A stretch of 64,000 nucleotides of DNA from Candidatus Poriferihabitaceae bacterium (GCA_965237485.1 CBDEFQ010000003.1:6554-70553); one strand, 5' to 3'. Positions 1,475 to 58,847 are shown, counted from the first letter of the stretch. The notes: generated by a model from the sequence alone, not told the origin. Translations and numbers: made by a program.

Positions 1475-1494
1475 ACAGACCTGAGCGCAAAACT

Positions 1495-26200: not shown

Positions 26201-26447
26201 CGTTAGCGTAGTGCTGTCGAATCAACCTTAGTCAATAACTTCGTAACCTTCTGAAAAAGTCACTCCAGCTAGGCTTCTCTACCGGTTCTTCTGCCATTCC
26301 TGGGGTTTCCGCTAAACGGCCTCCGCTTCTTCAGCTATTTCGACTTCTTCAATAACTTTCGCGTCAACAATTACTATCTCTTCTTCAAAACTAGCGGTAA
26401 AGGAAAACAGGCCGGAACCTATCCATATTCCAACATAATGATTCCTT

Positions 26448-37199: not shown

Positions 37200-37481
37200 A
37201 TGAGTAAAAAGCGTAGAAACCATGCCCCACCATTCAAAGCCAAAGTTGCTCTTGCAGCAATCAAAGGTGATGAAACATTAAGCAATCTTGCTAGTCGTTA
37301 TGACATCAATGCAAATCTTATCGTCAAGTGGAAGAAACAATTGCTCGATAGCTCAGCTGAAGTCTTTGCATCAGGCACAGGCTTATCTCCAAACCGAGAA
37401 TCAGAGATTAAATCATTACAGGCAAAGATCGGTGAAATCACCATGGGAAACGATTTTTTATCAAAAGCGCTCGGTCGTTAA
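37200..37481 (+). CDS. IS3-family transposase OrfA
   Basis: 93 aa, near-identical to ORF 1193-1474. Confidence 0.85.
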   Translation: MSKKRRNHAPPFKAKVALAAIKGDETLSNLASRYDINANLIVKWKKQLLDSSAEVFASGTGLSPNRESEIKSLQAKIGEITMGNDFLSKALGR

Positions 37482-37501
37482 ACAGACCTGAGCGCAAAAC
37501 T

Positions 37502-38326: not shown

Positions 38327-38378
38327 TCAGCTGAAAATAACTCCTAAGCCATCTGTCCTAAAAAGCGGGTCCACTTCT

Positions 38379-41817: not shown

Positions 41818-42008
41818 CAATCATTCAAATGATTGCCCGCTATTCCCTTTAGTTAGCAAGACACAAATTCCGCCTTACGTTTAAGCCAGTAGTGTTGAAC
41901 AGCGTGCAAAAATGAACAGTTTCGTGGGTGATCAGCGTACAAAACTGAACACCTTTATTGTTAACTGTCTCGGAGCCATTAATCCGAGGAAACTGTCAGG
42001 TGATTTGT

Positions 42009-43507
42009 ATGCCTATATGTACCAAGATACGACGTTTGTGTTTAGTAGAAGGTCGCAAAGTAAGCGAGGTGTCGCGTGAATTCAATTTATCACGCACCAC
42101 TATTTATAAATATTTAAACAACGCGCCAAGCGAACCTGAATATCAGCGGTCGGTGCCAATAGTCTGTCCGAAGCTGGATAAGTTCAAACCTCAGTTGATC
42201 AATTTGCTTGAAGTGGACGCAGCTCGCTCAGTGCGAGAAAGACGTAATGCAGTTCAACTGTATGAAGAGATTGAGTTGCAAGGGTATCGAGGGGCTTATG
42301 ACAGCGTTCAACGGTCTGTCAAAGCGTGGAAGGATCACTCGCGGTCATGTATTAAACAAGCATTTGTGCCATTGGTTTTTGCACCAGGTGAAGCCTGTCG
42401 TTTGATTGGTCACATGAACAAGTCATTCTGGGTGGGTTTGGTGTCAAGATCAAACTAGCCCACTTTCGTTTATGTCATTCGCGTAAATCATATCTTAGGG
42501 CCTATCCCAGAGAAACACAGGAGAGGGTGTTTGATGCACATATTCGGGCGTTTGATTTCTTTGAGGGCTTACCTCAGAAGATGATATACGATCACCCTAA
42601 GACCATAGTCAGTGCATTGTTTAAGGGTAAGCGGCGTGAGTTTAATCGCCGCTTTCTAAGCCGGATGAATCATTATCTGATTGAACCGATTGCCTGTACA
42701 CCGGCAGCGGGTTGGGAGAAAGGCCAGGTTGAACGTCAGGTCGGTGTTATGCGCCAAAGGCTGTTTGTTCCACGGGTGCGCTTTGCTGATTTAGATGAAT
42801 TAAACCAATGGCTGGAGCAACGTTGTGCTCGACTTGGTGAACGCCCACACCCGACTGACAAATCAAGATTAATTGATGAAGTGTTTGCCGAGGAGCAGCC
42901 GAGCTTACGTCCCGCGATGGTAGCCTTTGATGGATATTATGAGCGTTTGGCGCGTGTGCATAAAACCTGTGTGGTGCACTACGACCGCAATCAATACTCC
43001 GTACCCTGTCGGTATGTTGGCCAAGCTGTTTCTGTTAGAGCCTATGCAGATAGGATTAAAGTCGTGGTTGACGATGTGGAAGTGACTTCACATGCTCGCT
43101 GTTTCGGTCGTCATCAAATGATCTTTGATCCTTGGCATTATCTGCCCGTACTGGAGATTAAACCTGGCGCATTACGCAATGGCGCACCGTTTGTTGATTG
43201 GGATTTACCCAAGGCACTGCTAACACTCAAAAAACAGTACCTCAAACGTGATGGCGGTGACCGAGAGTTTGTACCATTGTTACTATTGATTCACCAGCAT
43301 GGCTTGGAAACAGTCACGGTGGCCTGTGAGCGGGCATTAGATGCCAATACGACTCAGCTATCAGTCATTACCAATTTGGTGCATCGGTTAACGGAACCTG
43401 ATTCGGCCCAAGTGATGACAATTACCAATGCGCCTGTATTAGCTGTCCCCTCGGCAGCGAACGTGACCCGCTATGACCCGCTGTGCGCGGAGGTGAGCCA
43501 TGCTTGA
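42009..43507 (+). pseudogene. istA: IS21-family transposase IstA, frameshifted
   Basis: One base is missing near 42399 relative to copy 2 (CCTGTCGTTTGATTGG against CCTGTCAGTTTGATTGG). This splits the gene into ORFs 41958-42458 and 42527-43507. Confidence 0.85.
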
Positions 43508-44252
43508 ACTTGTTGATGATCTTAAAGCCCTTAAACTACACGGTATGGCACCATGCTTACCTGAGTTGATAGATTCGCCTCGTTCTAAAGTAACGTTGCA
43601 ATCTGGGTTAATTAAATTGATGGATGCCGAGCGAACGGACCGAGAAGTGAGGCGGCTTAACTACCCAATGAAGGTGGCTAAATTCCCTCATCACCGTGAT
43701 TTACAGCAATTTGACTTTACCCAGAGCGAAGTTGAACCCGCGCTCATCGAGGATTTGTCTCAGGCTGACTATATGGACAGAGCCCATAACCTCATCTTTG
43801 TCGGTGGCACTGGAACAGGCAAAACCCATTTAGCTACGGCCTTAGGCATTAAAGCCATTCATTCAGGTCATCGGGTTCGGTTTTACAATGTGGTGGACCT
43901 GGTTAATCTGCTGATCAAAGAACAGCAGGATGAGAAGCAGGGGCGGCTAGCACGAATTATGCAACCGTTAGATGCGGTGATATTCGATGAGCTGGGATAT
44001 TTACCCTTCCCCGCATCGGGTGGCGCACTATTATTCCACCTGATCAGCAAGCTATACGAGAAAACCTCCATCGTGTTTACCACCAAGCTTAATGTCAGTG
44101 AATGGGTGCAGGTATTTGGCGACGAGAAAATGACCACGGCTTTGCTCGACAGAGTGACTCATCATTGCTCAATTATTGAAACGGGTAACGACTCATATCG
44201 ATTCAAGCAGTCTAGTGCTAAAGCAAAGCTCAAGACTGTCACTAAAAAATAA
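43500..44252 (+). CDS. istB: IS21-family helper ATPase IstB
   Basis: 250 aa with Walker A GGTGTGKTHLA and Walker B VIFDELGY. Confidence 0.9.
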   Translation: MLELVDDLKALKLHGMAPCLPELIDSPRSKVTLQSGLIKLMDAERTDREVRRLNYPMKVAKFPHHRDLQQFDFTQSEVEPALIEDLSQADYMDRAHNLIFVGGTGTGKTHLATALGIKAIHSGHRVRFYNVVDLVNLLIKEQQDEKQGRLARIMQPLDAVIFDELGYLPFPASGGALLFHLISKLYEKTSIVFTTKLNVSEWVQVFGDEKMTTALLDRVTHHCSIIETGNDSYRFKQSSAKAKLKTVTKK

Positions 44253-44333
44253 CATCGCAAGAAAGCAGGATTGATTCATCAACTCAAGTTTCGCTACGCT
44301 TCACTTGAGTTGATGATAAAGAAATATTATTGT

Positions 44334-45536
44334 GAGAGTGCAGCATAACTCATCGAGTATCTACATAATTTGTTAAAATTAGGCATGCAAAAACCATTCG
44401 CCACCCAACGAGATTTATTAGTATCAAGATCAGATTTGGATCATCCAATTCTGCATAGTCTTGATGATACAGAAGTGCTATTAGATTGGAGCGAAATAGA
44501 GACACTGCTTTCATCTATTTATGCTGGCACTACTGGCCGCCCTAGTTATCCATTACTTAGTTTGTTCCGCAGCTTGATGCTGGGAATTTGGTATGAACTG
44601 TCGGATAGGGAGTTAGCACAGTGCTTATTTAGAGATTTATTGTTTCGTAAGTTTTGCCGCTTTGAGTTAGGCGGCGATGTACCTGAAGCTTCGACCCTTG
44701 GGCGCTTTCGTAACCAGTTAATGGAGCACGAACTGTGGGATCGCTTGCTAGGTGAGATCAATCGTCAACTTGAAGCGAAGAACATTATTATGAGCAAGGG
44801 GCGCATCAACATTATAGATGCAACACCTATAGAAGCGGCTCGTTCTGGAAATGGTAACGGCAAAGACGGGACGCCTAAGCGAGACCCTGAAGCGAGCTGG
44901 CATGTCAAAAATGACAGCCGAGGTCGAAAGAAGTCTACCTATGGCTACTCAGTGCATACGGGAGTTGATGAGGATGGGTTTGTTCAGCGCCAGAATGTGA
45001 CGCCAGGGCATGTTCATGACAGCCAACTGCGCGATGAATTGCTGTTGGGCGATGAGACTGCCCTATATGCTGATGCGGCGTATAGTTCTGAGGAGACGCG
45101 AGATAAACTGGAGCAACTTGGAATTGATGATCAGGTTCAACGCAAGGGCTATCGAGGTAATCCGTTGTCAGATGCAGACCGTACCCGTAATGCAGTTATT
45201 GCGGTAACGCGAGCAGGTGGCGAACGGCTCTTTGCGACTTACAAGCAGCATTATGGTTTAGCTCGCACTCGGTTCATGGGGCTAGCGAAGAACCAGACTG
45301 TTTACGGCCTAGCGGCGATGGCAGCGAATATCCGTAAAGGTGCTAAGTTCTTAAGCTTGTATGGCTTGCCTGATTGGCACTATGCTGGATAGTTGTGCCT
45401 TTAATATGGCTTAGGTGCTCGAATTGATAAAATAGTGACTAAATGATGATCGAATACGCGAAACTGGGCAAATATAGCTCAAAAAATGAGTGCTTCGAAA
45501 ATATCAAACTAAAATCGTGAGTTACGCTGCGCTCTC
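44334..45536 (+). mobile_element. IS5-a, copy B, nested in the right arm of IS21-b
   Basis: Same IRs as copy A. Direct repeat ATTGT at 44329-44333 and 45537-45541. Confidence 0.9.
44370..45392 (+). CDS. IS5-family transposase
   Basis: 340 aa, differing from ORF 26592-27614 at a few residues. Confidence 0.9.
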   Translation: MLKLGMQKPFATQRDLLVSRSDLDHPILHSLDDTEVLLDWSEIETLLSSIYAGTTGRPSYPLLSLFRSLMLGIWYELSDRELAQCLFRDLLFRKFCRFELGGDVPEASTLGRFRNQLMEHELWDRLLGEINRQLEAKNIIMSKGRINIIDATPIEAARSGNGNGKDGTPKRDPEASWHVKNDSRGRKKSTYGYSVHTGVDEDGFVQRQNVTPGHVHDSQLRDELLLGDETALYADAAYSSEETRDKLEQLGIDDQVQRKGYRGNPLSDADRTRNAVIAVTRAGGERLFATYKQHYGLARTRFMGLAKNQTVYGLAAMAANIRKGAKFLSLYGLPDWHYAG

Positions 45537-45605
45537 ATTGTATTTAATTGTTCAGTTTTACTCGCTGACAGGTGTCCAGTTTTAAACGCTGATTGACACT
45601 TTAAA

Positions 45606-45801: not shown

Positions 45802-45894
45802 ACGAATGGGCTAATGCTAATCATCGATATATCGTGTGGAACGACAATGAGTCAACTTGCTAGACAAAAAGTCCATACCCAATGTTGCGTAATC
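45802..45894 (+). mobile_element. Right-end relic of IS256-b (93 bp)
   Basis: ACGAATGGGCTAATGCTAATCATCG...GTTGCGTAATC matches 18242-18334 with one difference. Confidence 0.85.
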
Positions 45895-45924
45895 TTCTTG
45901 TGCTATTTTCGGAGATGCCCTATA

Positions 45925-46062: not shown

Positions 46063-46190
46063 AAAAAAGCCCCCAAAAAAAGCCCCCACTGGGAGGGCTC
46101 CGGGAATTGCTTGAAAGCAGAGCCGACGGAAAATTCATTCCATTGGTATGAAAAGCAAGTCAATAGGCCTTGGTCGGTCACACTAAATCT
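46063..46190 (-). ncRNA. tracrRNA candidate, divergent from cas9
   Basis: Anti-repeat at 46163-46184 pairs with 22 nt of the repeat (20 Watson-Crick plus 2 G-U, only if both RNAs come from the minus strand). It is followed by hairpins and an intrinsic terminator GCCCUC-CCAGU-GGGGGC-U7 (46075-46098). The 5' and 3' ends are approximate. Confidence 0.6.
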
Positions 46191-46211
46191 AATTATACAG
46201 GAAAACATATT

Positions 46212-49200
46212 ATGAGTGAACAAAAAACACAAAAAATATTGGGTTTGGATTTAGGCAGCAACTCGATTGGTTGGGCCGTACTGAGGGCAAGCAATAAAAA
46301 ACCCGATTCTATTATTGCTGCAGGTAGTCGAATATTTAATAAGGCAGTTGAAGAGAAAACACCCACCCCCAAGAATGTTAAACGACGAAATAAACGGCTA
46401 GGGCGACGTGTTTTACAACGCAGGGCAAGGCGTAAGCTAAAAATGATGCGTTATTTGATTAAGCTCAACTTACTTCCTGAGGACATTCTAAATTCCCAAC
46501 AACCCGAGGTGATATTAAATGACTTGGGTGACCCTTACCACTTGAGAGCAAAAGGGCTTGATAAAAAACTGAAGCGTTATGAATTAGGCAGAGTTTTACT
46601 TCATCTTGTACAGCGGCGCGGGTTTTTAAGCAATCGAAAGACCGTTTTGGGTAACATGATTGATGACCCTGATGTCCTTGAGATATTGGCAGGGAAAGAC
46701 GACGATGCAAGCAATTTATCCGCAGAGCAGGCAAAAGAAGAAACGACGTTTAAAGCAGACATTTCAACATTAAAAGAAACCATACAAAATGCAAATTGTA
46801 GGACGCTTGGAGAATACCTTGCGTCATTAAGTCATCACGAAAGTCAACGAAATAGAGCACGGGATGGCGGGCATCTACGCACCGACCGTCAAATGTATCG
46901 AGAGGAGTTACGCCTAATCTGGGAAACACAGCAACAATATTCTCCAGCACTGGACGACCAAGTAAAAAAGCAAATTGAAGAAATTATTACTACCCAACGG
47001 CCGTTGAGATTAAGAGCGGATAGAGTCGGAAAATGTTCACTTGAGCACAAAAATAATCGGGCGAGAATGGCGCGACTGGAAGCGCAAAAGTTTCGATATC
47101 TGCAAGACATTAATAATTTAAAATTCTCTTGTCCTCAAACAGGTCGCGAGAGGCCGCTCTCATTGGATGACAAGGCGCGCCTTGTCGAATTATTTGAAAC
47201 TGATCTTAAGGTAAATCTAACTAAAATAAAAAAGATCATCGGCCTGGGAAATCGCTTGAAGCTGAATCTTGAAAGTAAAAACATTAAACCCAACATAACC
47301 GCCTGTAAGATAAGGCAAGTATTACCTGAATGGGATGATTTTGACGAATTAAAGCAATCTGCCTTGGCTGAGGATTTAATCACATTCACCAAAAAATCAA
47401 AACTACAAAAGCGATTAATTAATCACTGGGAGTTTGATATAAACATAGCCATTGAACTATGTTTACTCGAATTTGAACCGGGGCACAGTAACTTATCAAC
47501 CAAGGCAATAAAAAAACTTTTGCCCTTCCTAAAGCAAGGCCAGATATATTCAGATGCTCGAAAAAGTGCGGGCTATGGCTATGAGACAAAAGAACTAGAG
47601 CCGACACAAAGGTTGGGCAGCCCTCGTAAAACATCAAACCCTATTGTCAATAAAGCGTTGCATGAGTTAAGACGCATAATCAATGCTGTTATCAAAGAAT
47701 ACGGCAAACCGGATATTATTCGTATTGAAATGGCGCGCGACTTGGAAATGAATACCAAACGCTACAAACGCCGTATTAGCCAGCAAAATTCGAATGAAAA
47801 GGCCAATCAGGAAGCCACGGATAAATATCGACAAATGGCAAAGATGTATCCACATTTAGGTCTATCTCACTACCCCAGTCAGACGGACAAAGTACGCTAC
47901 AGACTGTGGACAGATCAAAATGAGTGTTGCGCCTACAGTGGCAAGGCAATCAATTTATCCACCCTATTCAGTAGTGGTGAAATCGAGATTGATCATATCG
48001 TGCCATACAGTCAGTCATTAGATGATTCCTACATGAATAAGGTTGTCTGCTATGCCCGCGAGAACCGTTACAAGGGACAACGCACACCCATTGATGCGTT
48101 TGGCGATAATGAAGAAAAATGGAATCAGCTTACCCAGGCAGTAGAGCGATGGGATGAAAGAGCACTGAAAAGTAAAAAAAGGCGCTTTTACTTAACTAAT
48201 GAAGATGTTTTAGAGCGTGACTTTGCGAGTAGCCAATTAAACGATACACGTTATATCAGTCGCCGGGCGTTGGAATATGTTAGTCAATTAGGTGCTGATG
48301 TTAATGTGACCAAAGGAATTTTAGTATCGCAGTTACGGTGGCAATGGGGTTTGAATAGCTTAATTGGTAAAACTCATGAAAAAGAGCGCACAGACCATCG
48401 CCACCATGCCATTGATGCGATTGTAATAGCTTGTGTAGACCGTAATTTCCATAAGCAACTAACACGTATTGCACGAGAAGCTGAAAAGCAAGCAAGCGAA
48501 CTAAAAGTAAGAGACATCCCTATTCCTAAACCATGGAAGCAGCTAAAACAAGATGCGCAAAAAGTAATTGAAAGCATCATCGTGTCACATTCACCGCAGC
48601 GCAAGATTACCGGAGGTTTGCACGAAGAAACCGGTGTGGGGTTCATTGAAAAGCTGGGGGCAACGGTTTACCGCGTTGATTTAAATGGTGATTTCTCATC
48701 CGGTAGAGCAAAGAAAATTGTTGACGAAAATGTAAAAGAAATCATTACCCGACACTTGGCAAAATATGCCAACGATCCAAAAAAGGCTTTTGCAGAAAAT
48801 ATCACGGTTTTCCACAAAGATGGCAAGACCCCGATTAAGCGTGTCCGAATTGTACAATCAAAGACGAATCTGAAAAAACTAGAACAATCCAAGTTTGGCG
48901 TTAAAAATAAGCGCGGCGAGGTGTTCAAGTGGATGGCGTATGGCAACATCCATCATGTCGAAATTATTCGTAACAAATTGACGGGTAAAATCAGAGGAGA
49001 GTTTGTGACAGCGATGGAAGCGAGCAAACGAGCCAAGGGTATCGGCGCACCCAAACAAAACATCGTCAAAACAGACCACGGTGAAAATTTTGAATTCTTA
49101 ATGGTATTGCATACTAATGATTTGGTGGAAATCAACACCAATGGGGGAAAACAAATTTACAGAGTACAAAAAATCTCTCCTGGCACAAATATGGTTTCAT

Positions 49201-49328
49201 TTCGACTTCATACCGCCGCAAATTTAGATAATAAACTCGAGGGTATTAATATAACAGTTAATAATGATTTTTTTGATAAACGGAAGATATCTAAACTTAA
49301 CCTAAATGCGATTGGTATTAAAGTGTGA
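46212..49328 (+). CDS. cas9: Type II-C CRISPR-associated endonuclease Cas9 (1038 aa from the MSEQ start)
   Basis: RuvC-I ILGLDLGSNSIGWA (Asp codon 46248-46250), Arg-rich bridge helix, RuvC-II IIRIEMARDL, HNH EIDHIVPYS...NKV (Asp-His 47991-47996), RuvC-III HHAIDA (48402-48416). The track ORF starts at 46170, but the MSEQKTQKILGLD start at 46212 fits Cas9 N-termini. Confidence 0.95.
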   Translation: MSEQKTQKILGLDLGSNSIGWAVLRASNKKPDSIIAAGSRIFNKAVEEKTPTPKNVKRRNKRLGRRVLQRRARRKLKMMRYLIKLNLLPEDILNSQQPEVILNDLGDPYHLRAKGLDKKLKRYELGRVLLHLVQRRGFLSNRKTVLGNMIDDPDVLEILAGKDDDASNLSAEQAKEETTFKADISTLKETIQNANCRTLGEYLASLSHHESQRNRARDGGHLRTDRQMYREELRLIWETQQQYSPALDDQVKKQIEEIITTQRPLRLRADRVGKCSLEHKNNRARMARLEAQKFRYLQDINNLKFSCPQTGRERPLSLDDKARLVELFETDLKVNLTKIKKIIGLGNRLKLNLESKNIKPNITACKIRQVLPEWDDFDELKQSALAEDLITFTKKSKLQKRLINHWEFDINIAIELCLLEFEPGHSNLSTKAIKKLLPFLKQGQIYSDARKSAGYGYETKELEPTQRLGSPRKTSNPIVNKALHELRRIINAVIKEYGKPDIIRIEMARDLEMNTKRYKRRISQQNSNEKANQEATDKYRQMAKMYPHLGLSHYPSQTDKVRYRLWTDQNECCAYSGKAINLSTLFSSGEIEIDHIVPYSQSLDDSYMNKVVCYARENRYKGQRTPIDAFGDNEEKWNQLTQAVERWDERALKSKKRRFYLTNEDVLERDFASSQLNDTRYISRRALEYVSQLGADVNVTKGILVSQLRWQWGLNSLIGKTHEKERTDHRHHAIDAIVIACVDRNFHKQLTRIAREAEKQASELKVRDIPIPKPWKQLKQDAQKVIESIIVSHSPQRKITGGLHEETGVGFIEKLGATVYRVDLNGDFSSGRAKKIVDENVKEIITRHLAKYANDPKKAFAENITVFHKDGKTPIKRVRIVQSKTNLKKLEQSKFGVKNKRGEVFKWMAYGNIHHVEIIRNKLTGKIRGEFVTAMEASKRAKGIGAPKQNIVKTDHGENFEFLMVLHTNDLVEINTNGGKQIYRVQKISPGTNMVSFRLHTAANLDNKLEGINITVNNDFFDKRKISKLNLNAIGIKV

Positions 49329-50320
49329 TAAAACGTGTCATTGACATCAGCCAGCAATCTTGTCTTTCGCTCACTAACAAACAGTTGTTGGTTAAGCAAG
49401 AGCATGAGGTGACCGCCAAGATTCCTGTCGAAGATGTCGGTGTGTTAATTTTGCAACACCCAGCCATTGTTATCACCCAAGCCGTAATAATCGCATTACA
49501 ACAAAATAACGCCGCCGTTTTGTTTTGTGATGCACGACATTTGCCTTACTCAATTACATTACCTATTTCTGATGGGCACTCTCTGCACAGTAAGATTTTA
49601 CAACAACAAATTCAGGTCAGCTCTCCCACTAAAAAGAGGCTTTGGCAACAAGTGGTGAAGCATAAGATTAGCGCACAGGTTAACACCCTAAAAAGGACGA
49701 TATCAATCGAAGATAAACCCTTATTACGGCTGGCCCAGAATGTGAAATCCGGCGACCCCGAAAACTATGAAGCGCAAGCCGCCCGACGTTATTGGCAACT
49801 ATTATTCGGCAAACAATTCCGCCGGAATACCGAAGCCGAAGGGATAAATTCGTTGCTCAATTATGGCTATGCAATCGTGCGCGGCATTATTGCAAGAGCA
49901 ATTGCCGGTGCTGGTTTGCACCCAGCCATTGGCATTCATCATCGCAATCAATATAACGGTTTAAATCTGGCCGATGACTTGATGGAGCCTTTTCGGCCAT
50001 GGATGGATAAACTGGTATATGACCTGGCCAAACAAGGACAAACGGAAATAAACCAGAAAACAAAGAAAGTCTTACTGGACATACCAAGTAAGAGTGTCCG
50101 ATGGCATCGCGAGGAAATGCCATTAATGGTTGCCAGTCATTATCTACTGGCTGAATTCAAGCGATCTCTATTTTCTTCTGACAAACCAAAATTGAGTTAT
50201 CCGACGTCAATTGAAGAGATGCCTGCATTAAACCTAGATAAATCAGTTAAACACGAAAGTCCATGCAAGCTCTTGATGCACCTAGCAAAATCAAAAAAAA
50301 CCTTATCACCAATAAGGTGA
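49325..50320 (+). CDS. cas1: CRISPR-associated endonuclease Cas1 (type II), C-terminus rewritten by a MITE
   Basis: The GTG start overlaps the cas9 stop (GTGA). Motifs NYGYAIVRG and NLADDLMEPFRP are present. From 50233 the ORF runs into MITE sequence. The native end would be ...MPALNVDT with its stop at 50410-50412. Confidence 0.9.
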   Translation: MIKRVIDISQQSCLSLTNKQLLVKQEHEVTAKIPVEDVGVLILQHPAIVITQAVIIALQQNNAAVLFCDARHLPYSITLPISDGHSLHSKILQQQIQVSSPTKKRLWQQVVKHKISAQVNTLKRTISIEDKPLLRLAQNVKSGDPENYEAQAARRYWQLLFGKQFRRNTEAEGINSLLNYGYAIVRGIIARAIAGAGLHPAIGIHHRNQYNGLNLADDLMEPFRPWMDKLVYDLAKQGQTEINQKTKKVLLDIPSKSVRWHREEMPLMVASHYLLAEFKRSLFSSDKPKLSYPTSIEEMPALNLDKSVKHESPCKLLMHLAKSKKTLSPIR

Positions 50321-50394
50321 CCGCGACTTTTTTGATTTCACTATGCACTTCAATTGCTTACATGTCTTTTCCGCGTTTAACTGATTTATCTAGG
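50233..50394 (+). mobile_element. MITE copy 3 (162 bp) at the cas1/cas2 junction
   Basis: 5-bp duplication TTAAA at 50228-50232 and 50395-50399. It differs from copy 1 by one A. Confidence 0.9.
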
Positions 50395-50415
50395 TTAAAC
50401 GTAGACACCTGATAA

Positions 50416-50745
50416 ATGACATTTGGCGGGTTAAACTCAATGTGGGTAATTGTATTATTCGATTTGCCTACAGACACCAAAAAAGCTCGCCAACAATACA
50501 CGCGATTTCGCAAAAAACTGCTTGATGACGGCTTTGGGATGATGCAATATTCAATATACATGCGTCACAGTTCAAGCGAAGAAAACGCGCAAGTTCACAT
50601 AAAACGTGTCAAAACCACATTACCTGATGATGGTGAAGTAAGAATTATCAAAATCACCGACAAACAATTTGCCAAGATCCAGGTTTATTATGGAAAAAAA
50701 CGTCTGCCAACAGAAAAAACACCCAACCAACTTGAGCTTTTATAA
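50416..50745 (+). CDS. cas2: CRISPR-associated endoribonuclease Cas2 (type II)
   Basis: 109 aa, ...MWVIVLFDLPTDTKKARQQYTRFRKKLLDDGFGMMQYSIYMRH... Confidence 0.9.
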   Translation: MTFGGLNSMWVIVLFDLPTDTKKARQQYTRFRKKLLDDGFGMMQYSIYMRHSSSEENAQVHIKRVKTTLPDDGEVRIIKITDKQFAKIQVYYGKKRLPTEKTPNQLELL

Positions 50746-50796
50746 GGCGCAAGTTGGTTTGTTTCTATTTGATAATCAAGGCTTTACGTGCGAGAT

Positions 50797-51616
50797 AGTA
50801 TAACCGACCAAGGCCTATCCGCAAATCACAACATAACGTCATTACATTGCAGTAATGCATTCAGTATAACCGACCAAGGCCTATCCGCAAATCACAACAG
50901 CGTTATTACCTTTGCAAGTTTTGGTTCAGTATAACCGACCAAGGCCTATCCGCAAATCACAACAGTACATCTTTTATGTCGCTGTAGAGGCTAGTATAAC
51001 CGACCAAGGCCTATCCGCAAATCACAACATACTCGATCATCGGTGATGTGGCCGAATCAGTATAACCGACCAAGGCCTATCCGCAAATCACAACAAGTAA
51101 TCTGACGTTAGTCGTCGTTCCAGAAGTATAACCGACCAAGGCCTATCCGCAAATCACAACTGAAGTCGTAGTGGTATTCGGCGGGTTTAAAGTATAACCG
51201 ACCAAGGCCTATCCGCAAATCACAACTAGTTCTCTAGTACCTGTTTTGTATTGGCTAGTATAACCGACCAAGGCCTATCCGCAAATCACAACTACAGAAG
51301 GCGGAACAACTGATGAAACAACAGTATAACCGACCAAGGCCTATCCGCAAATCACAACTAAGGTCCGTGTAGCGTTTATTCGCTTCATAGTATAACCGAC
51401 CAAGGCCTATCCGCAAATCACAACTAGATTGAACTAATCTAATCAATAACTTCCAGTATAACCGACCAAGGCCTATCCGCAAATCACAACAGTTATTATT
51501 ACTATAGTCGCTTAGAGGGTAGTATAACCGACCAAGGCCTATCCGCAAATCACAACTATTTAGATTATGTTGAGAGGTTAAAAATGAGTATAACCGACCA
51601 AGGCCTATCCGCAAAT
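50797..51616 (-). CRISPR. CRISPR array: 12 full 36-bp repeats plus one 30-bp truncated repeat, 12 spacers of 29-30 bp
   Basis: Plus-strand repeat AGTATAACCGACCAAGGCCTATCCGCAAATCACAAC. Inferred functional orientation GTTGTGATTTGCGGATAGGCCTTGGTCGGTTATACT. Repeat starts: 50797, 50863, 50928, 50993, 51059, 51125, 51191, 51257, 51323, 51389, 51455, 51521 and 51587 (truncated at 51616). Confidence 0.97.
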
Positions 51617-53032
51617 AGCTTTAAAGGGGTCTGACAGTCTTGTCCAACATGAAATGATACTGAGCGAAGGGACTGATTCTAATCGGAAATGATACCGAAC
51701 TAATCTAATTTCTGTTCATGATGGTGAATGAATACCATTATGAATGACCACCATATAGATACCCTTGATAAGGCGCGCTTGTTTCTACAAGGCACTGATG
51801 AAATCGATCTGGCAATCGACGGTAAACGCAATCGCTATGATTTCATCAAACGCACCTTAATGCGTTTCAAATACAGCAAACTGGGTCGAGCCGATAAGGG
51901 TCTTGTGCTGCGTTATATCACACGCATCAGCGGTTACTGCATATTTTTACCAACCGTGGCCAGTTAATTTTACGTAGCGAGGCCACCTAATTTTACCAAC
52001 CGTGGCCACTGATTTTTATCGAAGCGCGGACACTTTTTCGCTTCCGTAAAATTCCTCCACAGCCTTCTTGCGGTTAACACTATAACCGTTAACCTGCCGT
52101 TCTTTTATTTGTATTGGAACAGCTATGAAACCCAAGAAGGTCACTATGTTAAAACTCAAAGACATTCTGCGCTTGCACTATGAGGCGCAACTATCCTCCC
52201 GTAAAATCGCGCTCAGCTTAAACCTGTCACGCAGCGCCGTATCCAAATATCTCGTCAGAGCAACAAATGCCCAATTAAGCTGGCCCCTGCCAGCAGGCAT
52301 GGATGAACAACAGCTGCAGGCGATATTAAAGCCGCCCAAATGCAGAGGCCCTGCCACTGCTTTATTGTGTGAGCCAGACTTTGCACAAATATCAGTTGAA
52401 CGGTCTCGTAAAGGGATGACTCGCCAATTACTGTGGGAAGAATACGCCGAGCATCATCCAGTCAACCATTACAGCTATTCTCGCTTCACGGTGTTGTTCG
52501 GTCAGTGGCGCAAGAAGCAAAGAATCTCGATGCGCCAGACTCATATTGCTGGAGATAAACTGTTTGTTGATTATGCTGGTTTAACCTTAGGTATTATTGA
52601 TGCTCGTACGGGTGAAGCACGCCCTGCCCAAGTATTCGTTTCAGTGCTCGGAGTCAGTTCCTATACCTACGCCGAGGCCACATGGACACAGAGCTTGCCT
52701 GACTGGATAGGCTCACACGTTCGCGCCTTTGAATTTTATGGCGGTGTTACTCAAACAGTGGTGCCCGATAACCTCAAGAGTGCTGTTTCTAAAGCCGGTC
52801 GTTATGACCCCGAACTCAACCCCAGCTATGCACAATTAGCCGCCTATTACGGTGTGGCGGTGATGCCTGCCAGACCTTATAAGCCTAAGGATAAATCTAA
52901 AGCCGAGGTGGGCGTACAGATTGTCGAACGCTGGATCATGATGCGGCTGCGCAAGCTGCAATTGTTTAGTTTGGATGAGGCTAATCAAGCTATTCGAGGA
53001 TTGCTAGATGATCTAAACAATCGCCCCTTTAA

Positions 53033-53195
53033 CCTAGATAAATCAGTTAAACGCGGAAAAGACATGTAAGCAATTGAAGTGCATAGTGAAATCAAAAAAG
53101 TCGCGGTCACCTTATTGGTGATAAGGTTTTTTTTGATTTTGCCAGGTGCATCAAGAGCTTGCATGGACTTTCGTGTTTTAACTGATTTATCTAGG
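53033..53195 (-). mobile_element. MITE copy 4 (163 bp)
   Basis: 5-bp duplication TTTAA at 53028-53032 and 53196-53200. Confidence 0.9.
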
Positions 53196-53543
53196 TTTAA
53201 ACAACGCCCGGGTTCTCGCCGCTCACAGTTTGAATCAATTGATAAGCCTGCTCTTAAATCATTGCCTGGCACGCCTTATAGCTATCGCCATGTAGTAAAA
53301 GCACGGGCGCACATCGATTATCACGTTAGCTATGATGGACATCATTACTCGGTTCCCTATCAATTGCGCGGCGAGGCAGTAATGTTACACGTCGGCGAGC
53401 ACTGTATTGATGTGTTCTACCAAGGCAAGGGTGTCGCGCAACATCCGCGAGCAATGGGCCAAGGCGGACACACAACCCATGTCGCTCACATGCCTAAAGC
53501 TCATGCTAAACACCAAGAGTGGACGCCTGATCGGTTTCTTAAT

Positions 53544-53706
53544 CCTAGATAAATCAGTTAAACGCGGAAAAGACATGTAAGCAATTGAAGTGCATAGTGA
53601 AATCAAAAAAGTCGCGGTCACCTTATTGGTAATAAGGTTTTTTTTGATTTTGCTAGGTGCATCAAGAGCTTGCATGGACTTTCGTGTTTTAACTGATTTA
53701 TCTAGG
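53544..53706 (-). mobile_element. MITE copy 5 (163 bp)
   Basis: 5-bp duplication TTAAT at 53539-53543 and 53707-53711. Confidence 0.9.
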
Positions 53707-54045
53707 TTAATTGGGCAAGTCAGGTCGGTGCGGCGACAGAGCGCGTGGTGCGTTATCAATTAGAAAATCGCCCCCATCCAGAACATGGTTATCGTGCTTG
53801 TTTGGGCATTCTTAACCTTGCCAAGAAATACGGCAAGACGCGTTTAGAGAATGCCTGTTTACGCGCAGAGAAGATTGGCGGCCTGCATTACAAACACCTT
53901 GCATCAATACTACAAACCCGTCTCGACAAGCTACCTACCGAACCCGATAAGCAACAGACTTTGCCAAGCACCCATGCCAATGTGCGCGGAGCCGATTACT
54001 ACCATTAACCCAAACCATTTCATCTATAACCAACAGGAAAATACT

Positions 54046-54792
54046 ATGACTCCACAACAAACCCTTACCCAACTGAATGAATTACGCCTAACGGGCATGG
54101 CCGAGCAACTGTGCTATCAGTTCGACCCACCTAACACTTATGATGAGCTGGGCTTTATCGAACGACTCAGTTTGCTCGTAAACCACGAGGCCACCGTGCG
54201 GGATAACCGCAAAGTCACGCGTTTACTCAAGCAAGCGAAGTTACGATATCGCGCCCAAGCAGACGACATCGATTACCGAACTAGACGAGGTTTACACAAA
54301 GACACGGTAGCGCAGTTACTGGCCCTAGACGGGGTAAACAAAAGCCGCAATGTCATCATCCAGGGCCCTACAGGCACCGGCAAAACCTTCTTGGCCTGTG
54401 TGTTAGGACAAGCGACTTGTGAGCACGGCATTAGCACAAAATATATTCGTGCTAGCCGCTTATTTGAAGCAATGACCTTGAGCCATGGTGATGGCAGTTA
54501 CACCAAGCTACTGGCACAAATAGCAAAAATCAAACTATTGATTATCGATGACTGGGGCTTGGATACACTGACTCAGCAAAACCGTAATGACCGATTAGAA
54601 ATAATAGAAGATCGCCACGGTAATGGTGCCACCTTAATCACCAGTCAATTGCCCACACAACATTGGCATGATGCGATTGGTGAAGCCACTTTGGCTGATG
54701 CGATTCTGGATCGCTTATTACACAACGCGCACAAAATACAATTAGAGGGGGAATCGATGAGAAAAATCCAGTCACAACAGAGCAAAGTGTAG
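54046..54792 (+). CDS. istB: IS21-family helper ATPase IstB
   Basis: Start at MTPQQTLTQLNELRLTGMAEQL. Walker A GPTGTGKTFLA and Walker B LIIDDWG. Confidence 0.88.
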   Translation: MTPQQTLTQLNELRLTGMAEQLCYQFDPPNTYDELGFIERLSLLVNHEATVRDNRKVTRLLKQAKLRYRAQADDIDYRTRRGLHKDTVAQLLALDGVNKSRNVIIQGPTGTGKTFLACVLGQATCEHGISTKYIRASRLFEAMTLSHGDGSYTKLLAQIAKIKLLIIDDWGLDTLTQQNRNDRLEIIEDRHGNGATLITSQLPTQHWHDAIGEATLADAILDRLLHNAHKIQLEGESMRKIQSQQSKV

Positions 54793-56030
54793 CCACTTTA
54801 CGTTAAAATCACTTGACCGTTTGAAGGCTTGGTGCAAGTGGCCACGCTTCGTAAAATTCGGTGGCCACGGTTGTAAAAATACGCAGTTACTCTTATGTGC
54901 AAGTGAAACGCCTGGCTGCCAGCTATCTCAAGCACGGTAGAATCCAGTGGCGACATCGTGCCACAAGGGGCTTTGCTAGACGCTATAGCAATCAAGACAT
55001 TAAGCTTCTAGCAGAGATGGATGAACTCCACGGTACGTTATCAGGCCATGCCACTAAGAAACTCTGTGAGCGCGCCTTGGTTGTCTATGAGCAAACTGAG
55101 TATGCCAACCTGGCACGTATCTCGGTTTCTCATCTATACAATCTACGCCGATCTAAACCCTACCAGAACAATCGCCGTCACTTTGAAAAGACACATTCCA
55201 AGCCTTCTTCTATCGGCCAAAGACGTAAGCCACAGCCAGAAGGTCAACCTGGCTATAGCCGTGTAGATACAGTGCATCAGGGCGATAAGGACAAGGTTAA
55301 AGGGGTCTATCATATCAACGCCGTTGATGAGATCACCCCGTTTGAAGTCGTGTCTTCTACACAGAAAATATCAGAGCCATTCTTGATGCCTATTCTCACT
55401 CAAATGCTAGAGCAATTCCCCTTTGCGATTAAAGGCTTTCATGCCGATAATGGCAGTGAATACATTAACCAATCGGTGGTGCGATTGTTGAATAAGCTAT
55501 TAATCGAGTTGACCCAATCCAGGGCTAGACACCGTAACGACCATGCCTTAGTTGAGTGCAACAATGGGGCCATCGTGCGCAAGCATCTTGGCTTCATGCA
55601 TATCCCGCAAAAATATGCGCCTGAGATTAATCAATTTGCCACCGACTTTCTTAACCCTTATTTGAATTATCACCGACCTTGTTTCTTCCCACAGATCAGC
55701 ACTAACAACAAAGGAAAACAAGTCAAAACCTATCCATATCGAAACATGATGACGCCTTATGAAAAACTCAAATCGTTGACCAATGCACAGTCATATCTTA
55801 AAACTCACATCTCGTTTACAATGCTTGACGATATCGTTTATCAGATGACTGATAATGAGGCAGCAAAACAACTCAATGAGGAAAAAACTAAACTCTTTAA
55901 AAACATCTTTGAACAGAAATGACAATCAACTTCTCGGTATCATTCCTGTATTGGAATAGACTCTCGAAGCTGAGTTTCATTATATTTCGCAGATCGATAG
56001 TAATCTAAATTAGATTCATATTTCTTTATT

Positions 56031-57233
56031 GAGAGTGCAGCATAACTCATCGAGTATCTACATAATTTGTTAAAATTAGGCATGCAAAAACCATTCGCCA
56101 CCCAACGAGATTTATTAGTATCAAGATCAGATTTGGATCATCCAATTCTGCATGGTCTTGATGATACAGAAGCACTATTAGATTGGAGCGAAATAGAGAC
56201 ACTGCTTTCATCTATTTATGCTGGCACTACTGGCCGCCCTAGTTATCCATTACTTAGTTTGTTCCGCAGCTTGATGCTGGGAATTTGGTATGAACTGTCG
56301 GATAGGGAGTTAGCACAGTGCTTATTTAGAGATTTATTGTTTCGTAAGTTTTGCCGCTTTGAGTTAGGCGGCGATGTACCTGAAGCTTCGACCCTTGGGC
56401 GCTTTCGTAACCAGTTAATGGAGCACGAACTGTGGGATCGCTTGCTAGGTGAGATCAATCGTCAACTTGAAGCGAAGAACATTATTATGAGCAAGGGGCG
56501 CATCAACATTATAGATGCAACACCTATAGAAGCGGCTCGTTCTGGAAATGGTAACGGCAAAGATGGGACGCCTAAGCGAGACCCTGAAGCGAGCTGGCAT
56601 GTCAAAAATGACAGCCGAGGTCGAAAGAAGTCTACCTATGGCTACTCAGTGCATACGGGAGTTGATGAGGATGGGTTTGTTCAGCGCCAGAATGTGACGC
56701 CAGGGCATGTTCATGACAGCCAACTGCGCGATGAATTGCTGTTGGGCGATGAGACTGCCCTATATGCTGATGCGGCGTATAGTTCTGAGGAGACGCGAGA
56801 TAAACTGGAGCAACTTGGAATTGATGATCAGGTTCAACGCAAGGGCTATCGAGGTAATCCGTTGTCAGATGCAGACCGTACCCGTAATGCAGTTATTGCG
56901 GTAACGCGAGCAGGTGGCGAACGGCTCTTTGCGACTTACAAGCAGCATTATGGTTTAGCTCGCACTCGGTTCATGGGGCTAGCGAAGAACCAGACTGTTT
57001 ACGGCCTAGCGGCGATGGCAGCGAATATCCGTAAAGGTGCTAAGTTCTTAAGCTTGTATGGCTTGCCTGATTGGCACTATGCTGGATAGTTGTGCCTTTA
57101 ATATGGCTTAGGTGCTCGAATTGATAAAATAGTGACTAAATGATGATCGAATACGCGAAACTGGGCAAATATAGCTCAAAAAATGAGTGCTTCGAAAATA
57201 TCAAACTAAAATCGTGAGTTACGCTGCGCTCTC
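56031..57233 (+). mobile_element. IS5-a, copy C
   Basis: Same IRs as the other copies. Direct repeat TATT at 56027-56030 and 57234-57237. Confidence 0.9.
56067..57089 (+). CDS. IS5-family transposase
   Basis: 340 aa, near-identical to the other two copies. Confidence 0.9.
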   Translation: MLKLGMQKPFATQRDLLVSRSDLDHPILHGLDDTEALLDWSEIETLLSSIYAGTTGRPSYPLLSLFRSLMLGIWYELSDRELAQCLFRDLLFRKFCRFELGGDVPEASTLGRFRNQLMEHELWDRLLGEINRQLEAKNIIMSKGRINIIDATPIEAARSGNGNGKDGTPKRDPEASWHVKNDSRGRKKSTYGYSVHTGVDEDGFVQRQNVTPGHVHDSQLRDELLLGDETALYADAAYSSEETRDKLEQLGIDDQVQRKGYRGNPLSDADRTRNAVIAVTRAGGERLFATYKQHYGLARTRFMGLAKNQTVYGLAAMAANIRKGAKFLSLYGLPDWHYAG

Positions 57234-58847
57234 TATTAGTAATTCAATACTCAAAATATAACTTCCTTTACGGTAGGGCTGAGTTCGAGTTATGCCTGAA
57301 AGTGGTGTATGGAGTAGTTGACTAAAAGCGGCGTATCGGGATGAGTTGAGTTTACAACAACTTAAACTTCCACAGACATACGCCACTATGAAACAGAATA
57401 AAATTATTTCCTTTGAAAAGCCAGAGCAAAGCATCGATCCGCTGCAAGAATTGATTCGCAATGGCGCTAGGCAACTCATTCAAACCGCGGTCGAGAGTGA
57501 GTTATCTGAACTGCTGTATCGCAATTGTGACAAAGTCTCAGATTCAGGACACGCTGGTGTCGTTCGTAACGGCTATTTGCCAGAACGTGAACTGCAAACC
57601 GGGATCGGCCCAGTCAAAGTACGTATCCCCAAGGTGCGCTCCCGCACTGGAGTACCGATCACCTTTCGGTCTGCTTTAGTGCCGCCGTATGTGCGTAAAA
57701 AGAAGTGGACCCGCTTTTTAGGACAGATGGCTTAGGAGTTATTTTCAGCTGATTAAGCAGCCAATTTCAGGCCGCGACATGGATCATACATCATGTCAGG
57801 CACCATGCCTAAGGTTTGATGTTTGCGTTCTTGGTTGTAATAGTTCATCCAATTGCCAATACCGTCTTTTGCTTCTTTCATCGATTGATAGGCTTGCAGA
57901 TAAACTTCCTCATATTTAACACTGCGCCATAAACGCTCAACGAACACATTGTCACGCCAAGCGCCTTTGCCGTCCATACTGATACGAATGTTATTAGCTT
58001 TGAGTACGCCCGTAACCGCCTCACTGGTAAATTGCGCGCCTTGATCGCTGTTAAAGATTTCAGGCTTGCCATAGTAATGCAGGGCCTCTTCCAGAACATC
58101 TACACTGCGCTATCCATACTGTTGCTAAGATGCCATGACAGCACTTTGCGAGAATACCAGTCCATCACAACAGTAAGGTAAGCAAAGCCCTTAGGCATCG
58201 GGATATACGTAATATCGGTAGCCCAAGCTTGATTGGGTCGATTAACTGCTAAACCACCTAGCAGGTAGGGATAAACCTTGTGCCCAGCCTTCTTCTTGCT
58301 GGTGTTAGGCCTAGGATAGATGGCTTTAATGCCCATCTTACGCATTAAACGCCGCACATGCTTACGGTCAACTCGGTGGCCTACATCTTGCAAGGCATCA
58401 CGAATACGCCTACTGCCAAGAAAGGGGCGATTGAGATGAATGCGATCTATCAGATGCATTAGTTCCAAGTCATCTTCATTAGTAGGCGTGGGTTTGTAAT
58501 AAACACTAGACCGATGAATATCCAACAGCTTGCACTGTCGAACTAACGATAGTTTATTGCTTTTATTAATCATTGCTTTGCGCTCGGGTTTGTTTATCGA
58601 CCGAGCACTTTTGACAAAAAATCATTTTCCATGGTGATCTCACCAATCTTTGCCTGTAACGATTTAATCTCTGATTCACGATCCGGAGCCAAGCCTGTGC
58701 CTGAAGCAAAGACATCAGATGAGCTATCGAGCAATTGTTTCTTCCACTTGACGATAAGGTTAGCAGCGACGTCATAACGACTAGCAAGATTGCTTAAGGT
58801 TTCATCTCCTTTGATAGCGGCAATTTTCAGGGTAGTTGCACATTTTC

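What the first reader, a model, noticed from the sequence alone, without database searches (positions are those of the whole stretch)
50228..50399. MITE inserted in the last codons of cas1, rewriting the Cas1 C-terminus and uncoupling cas2
A 162-bp MITE with a TTAAA target duplication lies 15 nt before the native cas1 stop. The native end reconstructs as ...IEEMPALNVDT-TGA (stop at 50410-50412), 3 nt before the cas2 ATG at 50416. In the present sequence Cas1 reads ...MPALN and then 26 MITE-encoded residues (LDKSVKHESPCKLLMHLAKSKKTLSPIR) before stopping at 50320, about 95 nt upstream of cas2. The MITE also contains the hairpin ACCTTAT-N5-ATAAGGT, which is followed by a T8 run only on the minus strand at this copy. 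It could therefore terminate antisense transcripts coming from the array toward cas1 and cas9, while the cas operon reads it in the non-terminator sense. Whether adaptation (Cas1-Cas2) still works is an open and testable question. I do not recall MITE insertion at this junction being described.
Basis: partly seen in the sequence, partly recalled or inferred. Interest (0 to 1): 0.65.

Follow-up and report, generated by a model that had tools for sequence, protein, structure and literature searches.

The report
Polymorphic MITE in cas1's last codons
A 162-bp non-coding jumping element sits in the last codons of the cas1 gene of a type II-C CRISPR locus. Related bacteria, and part of one sampled population, lack it at this site and carry a 2-base difference there, so this is an ordinary but well-documented case of a mobile element inserted into, and probably later lost from, an immunity gene.

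Summary
A 162-bp MITE lies at 50233-50394. It has perfect 20-nt terminal inverted repeats and a TTAAA target duplication. It is one of five near-identical copies in the window, each with its own 5-bp AT-rich duplication, and read depth suggests about 35-250 copies per genome.

Public runs contain the same locus without the element. One sample carries both forms at roughly 40:60. Every empty allele reads TTAAACCTAGATACC (Cas1 ...ALNLDT). The TSD-based reconstruction predicts TTAAACGTAGACACC (...ALNVDT). The most likely reason is that the empty alleles are secondary losses by slippage between a 13-nt imperfect direct repeat, made of the TSD plus the MITE end on one side and the TSD plus native flank on the other.

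The insertion lies in a variable, probably disordered tail beyond the conserved Cas1 core, so Cas1 is probably still functional. A 31-codon ORF whose start overlaps the new stop (GTGA) runs to the native stop and could relay translational coupling to cas2. The minus-strand terminator is weak. MITE and IS insertions in cas genes are already catalogued. No RNA data were available.

The parts
50233..50394 (.). 162-bp MITE. It is almost fully palindromic, has 20-nt perfect TIRs (CCTAGATAAATCAGTTAAAC), and lies in the opposite orientation to copies 45606, 53033 and 53544.
   Evidence: It folds as one long hairpin: RNA -67.3 kcal/mol on the + strand and -89.2 on the - strand, DNA -44.7, with z about -10 to -14.
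50228..50232 (.). Left copy of the TTAAA target-site duplication.
50395..50399 (.). Right copy of the TTAAA target-site duplication.
50228..50240 (+). R1, TTAAACCTAGATA (TSD plus the first 8 nt of the MITE). It is the left member of a 13-nt imperfect direct repeat, and it is the copy retained in all empty alleles.
   Evidence: 11/13 identity to R2. (empty alleles equal window ..50239/40 joined to 50407/8..).
50395..50407 (+). R2, TTAAACGTAGACA (TSD plus native cas1 flank). It is the right member of the imperfect direct repeat.
   Evidence: The filled right junction 50370-50436 is confirmed without differences in X1 and X2.
49325..50320 (+). cas1 as it now reads: 331 aa, with the last 28 codons (50234-50317) from the MITE and the stop at 50318-50320.
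   Evidence: (PF01867).
50400..50412 (+). Displaced native 3' end of cas1: C GTA GAC ACC TGA, that is ..VDT and the stop.
50317..50412 (+). 31-codon ORF in the native cas1 frame. Its GTG overlaps the new cas1 stop (GTGA). It ends at the native stop, 3 nt before cas2, and is a candidate relay for translational coupling.
   Evidence: The function is inferred.
50293..50333 (-). Central A8 / hairpin / T6 module. On the - strand the hairpin is followed directly by T8, which makes it terminator-like.
   Evidence: single - strand hit, 1.1 expected by chance. (core hairpins -6.0 and -8.4 kcal/mol).
50416..50745 (+). cas2, 109 aa and intact.
   Evidence: PF09827. The N-terminus MTFGGLNSMWVIVLFDLPTD matches the Cas2 of L001, MSFGGLKSMWVIVLFDLPTD.
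46212..49328 (+). cas9, 1038 aa, overlapping the cas1 start.
50797..51622 (-). CRISPR array with 12 perfect 36-nt repeats and one degenerate distal repeat. The crRNA sense is the - strand, so transcription runs towards cas2.
   Evidence: Orientation is inferred from the tracrRNA strand and from type II-C precedent (PMC3737331).
46063..46185 (-). Candidate tracrRNA. The anti-repeat AGTGTGACCGACCAAGGCCTAT lies at 46163-46184. TGTATAAT lies just upstream, and two hairpin/T-run terminators lie downstream.
   Evidence: No Rfam family reached gathering score in this region.

Best explanation
A non-autonomous TIR transposon (MITE) inserted into the last codons of cas1 in a type II-C cas9-cas1-cas2 operon and duplicated TTAAA. 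Its ends and its 5-bp AT-rich target duplication resemble those of IS1380/ISEcp1-type elements. The insertion swaps the last 3 residues of a non-conserved Cas1 tail for 28 unstructured residues. It also moves the cas1 stop 95 nt away from the cas2 start, placing a long RNA/DNA hairpin of about 75 bp between the two genes.

The insertion is polymorphic. Close relatives, and about 60% of one sampled population, lack it. These empty alleles are most likely secondary losses rather than the ancestral state. The TSD plus the first 8 nt of the MITE (TTAAACCTAGATA) and the TSD plus the native flank (TTAAACGTAGACA) form an 11/13 direct repeat at the base of the MITE hairpin. Replication slippage that keeps the left copy removes exactly 167 nt. 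That restores the frame and the cas1-cas2 junction and leaves a 2-nt scar (GTAGAC to CTAGAT, Cas1 V304L).

Functionally the insertion is probably near-neutral for Cas1. It may weaken cas2 expression rather than abolish it. Lost coupling may be relayed by the 31-codon ORF starting at 50317, and the long hairpin might be processed by RNase III.

Shown here: the insertion, its anatomy, the polymorphism and the sequence of the empty alleles. Inferred: the direction of change (that loss is secondary), the slippage mechanism and every expression effect.
For: MITE identity: five copies with TIRs and individual 5-bp TSDs. MITE depth in runs is about 35-250 times the unique flank.

Empty site: P0001, a 306-aa Cas1 identical to the window's over residues 1-303 and ending NLDT. 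X3 and X4 contigs skip 50240-50406 and are otherwise identical over 1240 + 201 nt.

Both alleles in one sample: in X2 the filled branches have depth 1014 and 750, the empty branch 1300, and the flanks 2010 and 1894. Unitigs break exactly at 50240 and 50407, as expected if both alleles are present.

Scar logic: the observed empty allele equals R1 followed by the sequence after R2. No empty allele of the TSD-precise type (GTAGAC) is seen in X1-X4, because the left unitigs do not branch at 50234. The other four copies show only 1-2/8 for this comparison of right flank with left MITE end (0-3/8 counting both ends), against 6/8 here. All four combinations of cas9 background (3-nt deletion at 49224 plus A>G at 49248) and MITE state exist. 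That fits recurrent deterministic loss.

Hairpin. Tail is non-conserved and disordered. Conserved 2-3-nt cas1-cas2 spacing. Relay ORF. ISEcp1 has IRL CCTAGATTCTACGT and 5-bp direct repeats: PMC6061673.
Against: No outgroup carrying the predicted pre-insertion GTAGAC empty site was found. X5 has no coverage there, and the metagenome and genome scans returned nothing. A polymerase stalled at the base of the hairpin would be expected to slip at the 5-bp TSD itself and give the GTAGAC product. The observed product needs 8 nt of synthesis into the stem, followed by re-pairing with two mismatches. The four-haplotype pattern could equally come from homologous recombination between strains. Logan contigs show presence and not absence. 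No RNA data were available, so all expression effects are untested. No autonomous partner IS with these TIRs lies in the window.
Confidence: 0.6

Rival explanations
1. The empty allele (TTAAACCTAGATACC, ALNLDT) is ancestral. The MITE inserted next to a pre-existing 8-nt mimic of its own end, possibly attracted by it. The filled allele then picked up two substitutions (C>G, T>C) in that mimic.
For: The empty allele is the only empty form seen and occurs in three independent data sets. IS1380-type transposases are known to accept degenerate end-like sequences (alternative IRR of ISEcp1, PMC6061673). End-targeting is therefore conceivable. An IRR-TTAAA-pseudo-IRL junction might be selected against.
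Against: It needs an 8/8 chance match (1.5e-5), or a targeting preference that the other four copies do not show (0-3/8). It also needs two substitutions within 7 nt while the surrounding 1441 nt have none.
Confidence: 0.2
2. The MITE has a regulatory function. In this orientation its hairpin plus U8 terminates antisense transcripts that run from the repeat-borne promoters of the array through cas2 into cas1 and cas9. Alternatively, its presence or absence acts as a population-level switch for Cas1-Cas2 adaptation.
For: crRNA and tracrRNA are on the - strand, so array transcription runs towards cas2 (type II-C precedent PMC3737331). A terminator-like site occurs on the - strand only. Both alleles are at intermediate frequency in one sample.
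Against: The stem has 6-7 bp with 3 G-C pairs and -6 to -8 kcal/mol. One hit matches the 1.1 expected in shuffles. The element is a generic high-copy repeat that also disrupts an IS21 transposase gene, so no locus-specific adaptation is evident. Loss by deletion is irreversible, so it is not a true switch. No RNA data exist.
Confidence: 0.1
3. The insertion disables adaptation. cas2 is no longer translated because coupling is lost, there is no Shine-Dalgarno sequence, and the start is separated by a hairpin or by RNase III cleavage. The locus would then keep interference but stop acquiring spacers.
For: No SD-like sequence lies upstream of ATG 50416. The tight stop-start spacing is conserved in a distant relative. 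IS and MITE insertions are a known natural route of CRISPR inactivation (PMC10359306).
Against: A relay ORF ends at the native stop. cas2 and cas1 are intact with no further decay. The filled allele persists on two cas9 backgrounds. The leader-proximal spacer 1 is at about 85-90% of locus depth in X2 and so is shared by both alleles, which is uninformative on this point.
Confidence: 0.25
4. The stretch is a native conserved Cas1 C-terminus and not an insertion.
For: None beyond the continuous ORF.
Against: Five copies exist with TIRs and TSDs. Empty alleles exist. Homologues end 5-25 residues after the conserved YP and share nothing with this tail.
Confidence: 0.01

Closest known systems
Natural IS and MITE insertions in cas genes (Sheng et al. 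2023, Nat Commun, PMC10359306)
   Same: A transposable element is inserted inside a cas gene of an otherwise intact CRISPR-Cas locus. That survey found 163 IS insertions and also screened MITEs in cas genes.
   Different: Those cases are presented as inactivating insertions. Here only the last 3 codons of a variable tail are replaced, the effect is on the cas1-cas2 junction, and empty alleles that differ by 2 nt beside the TSD coexist with the filled one.
ISEcp1 / IS1380-family elements
   Same: The terminal 7 nt CCTAGAT equal the start of the ISEcp1 IRL (CCTAGATTCTACGT). The target duplications are 5 bp and AT-rich (PMC6061673).
   Different: The element is 162 bp and non-coding. No IS1380-type transposase or full-length partner lies in the window. 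Beyond the first 7 nt the TIR differs.
Correia repeat-enclosed elements (CREE) of Neisseria
   Same: Both are small, high-copy TIR elements co-transcribed with neighbouring genes. In Neisseria the RNA hairpin is bound or cleaved by RNase III and changes expression of adjacent genes (PMC2649163). Neisseria also carries type II-C CRISPR with an antisense-oriented array (PMC3737331).
   Different: There is no sequence similarity. The TSD is 5 bp instead of TA. RNase III processing, promoter activity and IHF binding are untested here, and no sigma-70-like promoter was found.
Transposase-independent precise or nearly precise excision of Tn5 and Tn10 (slippage between short direct repeats, stimulated by the inverted repeats; textbook knowledge, not retrieved here)
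   Same: An element with inverted repeats is flanked by short direct repeats. Deletion leaves one repeat copy and restores the reading frame.
   Different: The repeat used would be an extended imperfect one (13 nt, 11/13) that includes 8 nt of the element, so the product carries a 2-nt scar. The mechanism is inferred from sequence only.

Membership tests
Bacterial MITE (non-autonomous TIR transposon) | Small size (under about 300 bp) and no coding capacity of its own | tested here: met
   The element is 162-163 bp. Only chance ORFs that read through from its flanks are present.
Bacterial MITE (non-autonomous TIR transposon) | Terminal inverted repeats | tested here: met
   The TIRs are 20 nt and perfect. 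The whole element folds as one hairpin.
Bacterial MITE (non-autonomous TIR transposon) | Target-site duplication of constant length that differs between copies | tested here: met
   The duplications are ATTAT, TTAAA, TTAAA, TTTAA and TTAAT.
Bacterial MITE (non-autonomous TIR transposon) | Many dispersed copies | tested here: met
   There are 5 copies in 64 kb. MITE depth is 35-250 times the unique flank in four runs. The MITE is also present in runs X5, X6, X7 and X10.
Bacterial MITE (non-autonomous TIR transposon) | Empty site in related genomes | tested here: met
   A 167-nt skip occurs in X3 and X4, an empty branch occurs in X1 and X2, and P0001 lacks the element. The empty site differs by 2 nt from the TSD-precise prediction.
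Bacterial MITE (non-autonomous TIR transposon) | Autonomous partner IS with matching TIRs | tested here: not met
   None of the IS3, IS5, IS21 or IS256 copies in the window has these ends. The rest of the genome could not be searched.
IS1380 family derivative | Ends beginning with CC and resembling those of family members | tested here: met
   CCTAGAT equals the first 7 nt of the ISEcp1 IRL (PMC6061673). That ISEcp1 belongs to the IS1380 family is from my own knowledge.
IS1380 family derivative | Target duplication of 4-5 bp | tested here: met
   All five copies have a 5-bp duplication.
IS1380 family derivative | Mobilised by an IS1380-type DDE transposase | not testable with these tools
Rho-independent terminator (- strand) | Stable G+C-rich stem followed directly by a U-tract | tested here: inconclusive
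   The U8 tract is present. The stem has only 6-7 bp with 3 G-C pairs and -6 to -8.4 kcal/mol. One site was found against 1.1 expected in shuffles.
Type II-C CRISPR-Cas | cas9-cas1-cas2 with no fourth gene, plus a tracrRNA anti-repeat and an array | tested here: met
   The array has 13 repeats and an anti-repeat with 20/22 identity lies upstream of cas9. The nearest Cas1 proteins are named type II Cas1.
Correia-like element (CREE) | TA duplication, 26-bp Correia TIR, RNase III and IHF sites | tested here: not met
   The TSD is 5 bp and the TIR differs. RNase III cleavage is not testable here. The resemblance is functional only.

The most novel reading that the evidence does not exclude
The filled and empty alleles represent a population-level on/off (or high/low) state of spacer acquisition. 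The MITE lowers Cas2 output or adds an antisense terminator. A built-in 13-nt imperfect repeat at the base of the MITE hairpin makes its loss frequent and deterministic. Symbiont or environmental populations would then keep both adaptation-competent and adaptation-damped cells.
Probability: 0.08. Interest if true: 0.7.

Novelty: new member of a known kind. Interest (0 to 1): 0.35.

Why it matters
Insertion of transposable elements into cas genes is a known natural route for modulating or inactivating CRISPR immunity. This case is a useful natural experiment for three reasons. The insertion spares all conserved Cas1 residues and alters only the cas1-cas2 junction. The filled and empty alleles coexist on otherwise identical backgrounds. 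The empty alleles carry a diagnostic 2-nt mark that may reveal how MITEs are lost, through an extended imperfect repeat rather than the TSD itself. If the secondary-loss reading is right, then 'empty sites' used to date MITE insertions can be revertants. The V304L change would then be a footprint of a past insertion.

Tried and rejected
1. I tried to fetch the DNA of the related genome (1.44-Mb contig) through the look-up of encoding contigs with P0001, P0123 and the window's Cas1. None is on record.

2. The genome-contig scan with Cas1 returned only a 56%-identical Spongiihabitans locus, L001. It was useful only for the cas1-cas2 junction.

3. Metagenome scans for the cas2 5' junction and for the MITE TIR found nothing, and neither did a viral-contig scan for the TIR.

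4. I tried run X5 (about 95% related) as an outgroup. It has no coverage of the cas1 3' end.

5. I looked for RNA-seq. All runs have unknown kind. The rising depth from cas2 to the array in X1 looked like RNA at first, but the same excess appears in the other three runs laid there, X2, X3 and X4. I therefore attribute it to extra genomic copies of the cas2 3' part, leader and array, and no transcription conclusion was drawn.

6. I tried to use the neighbouring MITE at 45606 as a second empty-site test. The region is entirely repeats and was uninformative.

7. Alternative registers for the insertion were considered: a unit extended to an alternative right end, or other 5-bp TSDs. None gives matching duplications, and all still need the same two substitutions.

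8. Transposase-mediated excision with a footprint was rejected. The product lacks the second TSD and keeps 7 nt of only one end, while having exactly the empty-site length.

9. The organism could not be named. The nearest DnaK proteins are unnamed gammaproteobacterial MAGs at 93% identity.

10. No literature hit was found for this TIR.

Full report
Observation. A 162-bp element lies at 50233-50394. It begins with CCTAGATAAATCAGTTAAAC, ends with the exact reverse complement, and is flanked by TTAAA on both sides. The 20-mer occurs ten times in the window as five inverted pairs, against none in shuffles. The five copies are at 36432, 45606, 50233, 53033 and 53544. They are about 98% identical, and similarity stops exactly at the CCTAG/CTAGG ends. 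Each copy has its own 5-bp AT-rich duplication: ATTAT, TTAAA, TTAAA, TTTAA and TTAAT. The cas1 copy is inverted relative to three of the others and has a 1-nt deletion. In public runs that hold this locus, the MITE has 35-250 times the depth of the unique flank, so it has on the order of a hundred copies per genome. It is also present in several other samples. This is a bona fide MITE.

Locus context. The window is chromosomal and carries carB, dnaK, recN and ffh. It is extremely rich in insertion sequences of the IS3, IS5, IS21 and IS256 families. The locus is a minimal type II-C system. It has cas9 (46212-49328), cas1 (49325-), cas2 (50416-50745) and 13 repeats (50797-51622). A tracrRNA candidate lies on the minus strand just upstream of cas9. 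Its anti-repeat is at 46163-46184, TGTATAAT lies upstream, and two hairpin/T-run terminators lie downstream. The crRNAs are therefore minus-strand and the array is transcribed towards cas2. N. meningitidis and C. jejuni show the same arrangement (PMC3737331).

Effect on the genes. Cas1 now reads 331 aa. The stop is at 50318-20, 95 nt before the cas2 ATG. Removing the MITE and one TSD gives a 306-aa protein ending ALNVDT, with TGA at 50410-12 three nucleotides before cas2. In an alignment with 15 relatives, the conserved core ends at the YP motif (P293). After that, tails vary from 5 to about 25 residues with no similarity. Solved type II Cas1 structures align only to about residue 272. AlphaFold2 gives residues 299-331 a pLDDT of about 30, while the fold up to residue 298 is modelled normally. 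The rewritten C-terminus is thus a swap within a variable, probably disordered tail, and I expect Cas1 to be functional (inference).

The cas1-cas2 junction. A distant relative (L001) has its cas1 stop 2 nt before the cas2 start, and the same Cas2 N-terminus (MSFGGLKSMWVIVLFDLPTD). ATG 50416 is therefore the real start, and tight stop-start spacing is conserved. No Shine-Dalgarno-like sequence precedes 50416. Loss of translational coupling is a reasonable concern. However, the new stop overlaps a GTG (GTGA, 50317-50320). That GTG opens a 31-codon ORF in the native frame, which ends at the native stop 50410-12. A termination-reinitiation relay could therefore carry ribosomes to cas2. This is an inference from sequence and is testable with reporter fusions.

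RNA and DNA structure. The whole MITE folds into one long imperfect hairpin. As RNA it gives -67.3 kcal/mol on the + strand and -89.2 on the - strand, and as DNA -44.7, all with z below -10. It is weak, though: 6-7 bp, 3 G-C pairs, and -6 to -8.4 kcal/mol. One hit is also what shuffles give (1.1). No sigma-70-like promoter was found in 49900-51000. By analogy with Correia elements, whose transcribed hairpins are RNase III substrates (PMC2649163), the long stem may matter more than the small terminator. Nothing could be tested, because no run could be identified as RNA.

Empty alleles. The reconstructed Cas1 retrieved P0001, a 306-aa protein from a 1.44-Mb contig of a related genome. It is identical over residues 1-303 but ends ALNLDT. 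That genome's Cas9 (P0123) is 98% identical to the window's. In runs X3 and X4 (one sample), a contig identical to the window over 49000-50239 and 50407-50607 skips exactly 167 nt (50240-50406), with no filled allele detected. In runs X1 and X2 (another sample), the unique left unitig stops at 50240 and the right one starts at 50407. Between them are two branches. The filled form is 50211-50257 and 50370-50436, both without differences. The empty form is 50211-50240 followed by CCTGATAAATGACATTTGG.... In X2 the depths are 1014 and 750 (filled), 1300 (empty) and 2010 and 1894 (flanks), so about 40% is filled. The insertion is therefore real, recent and polymorphic, even within one sample.

The 2-nt discrepancy. 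Every empty allele reads GCATTAAACCTAGATACCTGA. The window's right flank predicts GCATTAAACGTAGACACCTGA. Two differences fall within 7 nt directly beside the TSD, while the remaining 1441 nt are identical. No GTAGAC-type empty allele exists in X1-X4, because the left unitigs do not branch at 50234.

The empty sequence equals the window up to 50239/40 joined to 50407/8. It keeps the first 7-8 nt of the MITE (CCTAGATA) in place of the native CGTAGACA. These two octamers match at 6/8. Together with the TSD they form a 13-nt direct repeat with 11/13 identity: R1 at 50228-50240 and R2 at 50395-50407. Slipped-strand deletion between R1 and R2 that retains R1 gives exactly the observed allele. The repeats sit at the base of a very stable hairpin. 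The deletion restores the frame and the cas1-cas2 spacing, at the cost of V304L and a synonymous change.

The alternative is that CCTAGATA is ancestral and the filled allele later mutated twice. That needs an 8/8 chance match (1.5e-5), or an end-targeting preference that the other four copies do not show (0-3/8). It also needs two substitutions in 7 nt against none elsewhere. I therefore favour secondary loss at about 0.6-0.65, against about 0.2 for the alternative.

Two caveats apply. No outgroup could be obtained. Simple hairpin-stalled slippage would be expected to use the TSD itself.

One further observation fits recurrent deterministic loss. All four combinations of cas9 background (3-nt deletion at 49224 and A>G at 49248, fixed in X1/X2 and absent in the window and X3) and MITE state occur. 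Recombination between strains would explain this as well.

Does adaptation still work? This remains unresolved. X3 and X4 share none of the window's 12 spacers despite identical cas genes. X1 and X2 share most of them. Spacer turnover is therefore fast relative to point mutation. Spacer 1 is at about 85-90% of locus depth in X2, so it is common to both alleles, which is uninformative. Phased long reads would settle the question.

Family and novelty. The terminal CCTAGAT and the 5-bp AT-rich duplication match ISEcp1, which has IRL CCTAGATTCTACGT and 5-bp direct repeats (PMC6061673). That ISEcp1 is an IS1380-family element is from my own knowledge. No partner IS is in the window. MITE and IS insertions in cas genes have been surveyed (PMC10359306). 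No paper mentions this TIR.

The finding is a well-documented new member of a known kind. Its one unusual feature is the scar-bearing empty alleles and what they suggest about how MITEs are lost. Interest is moderate to low (0.35).

Noticed in passing
window 46063-46199 (- strand): A candidate tracrRNA lies divergent from cas9. TGTATAAT (extended -10-like) is at 46199-46192, and the anti-repeat AGTGTGACCGACCAAGGCCTAT is at 46184-46163. Hairpins ending in T-runs follow at about 46076 and about 46063. No Rfam family reached gathering score there.
   Followed up: partly
window 50578-50830 (cas2 3' part, leader and first repeat): In all four runs this stretch is 2- to 27-fold deeper than cas9, cas1 and the cas2 5' part. 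It also continues into other contexts. One example is the loose end TATCCCCAAATGGATACAGGGATTATGAGT before 50578 in X2 and X5. Another is an X3 contig that joins a MITE end (50400) to 50578. Extra partial cas2-leader-array copies, possibly orphan arrays, seem to exist elsewhere in these genomes.
   Followed up: partly
window 50833-51586: Runs X3 and X4 have cas9-cas1-cas2 identical to the window but share none of its 12 spacers. X1 and X2 share most of them, at unequal depths, which suggests array variants within one sample. Spacer turnover appears fast relative to point mutation.
   Followed up: partly
window 45802-45895 and 18242-18335: A second short repeat of about 94 nt (99% identical between the two copies) is also present at about 75-fold depth excess in the runs. 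One copy sits between the MITE at 45606 and the tracrRNA.
   Followed up: no
window 52125-54792: An IS21-type element has its istA gene interrupted by two copies of the same MITE (53033-53195 and 53544-53706). IstA reads into the MITE (...NLDKSVKRGKDM*). An intact-looking istB lies at 53851-54792.
   Followed up: partly
window 34841-36145 (+): A 434-aa ORF gives no Pfam or NCBIfam match. It lies about 290 nt upstream of the MITE copy at 36432.
   Followed up: no
window 14067-15983 (dnaK) compared with 46212-50232 (cas9-cas1): The nearest DnaK in the protein collection is only 93% identical, and its relatives are unnamed MAGs. Cas1 and Cas9 have relatives at 100% and 98% identity on a 1.44-Mb contig. 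Either that genome's DnaK was not listed, or the CRISPR locus is more widely shared than the core genome.
   Followed up: no
window 1105-2371, 3604-4997, 26447-27650, 37112-38378, 41892-45548, 56030-58823, 60445-61578: IS density is very high. There are three IS5 copies, three copies of an IS3-like (rve) element, IS256 pieces and several IS21 pieces. Some are nested or truncated, which fits a genome undergoing IS expansion.
   Followed up: partly
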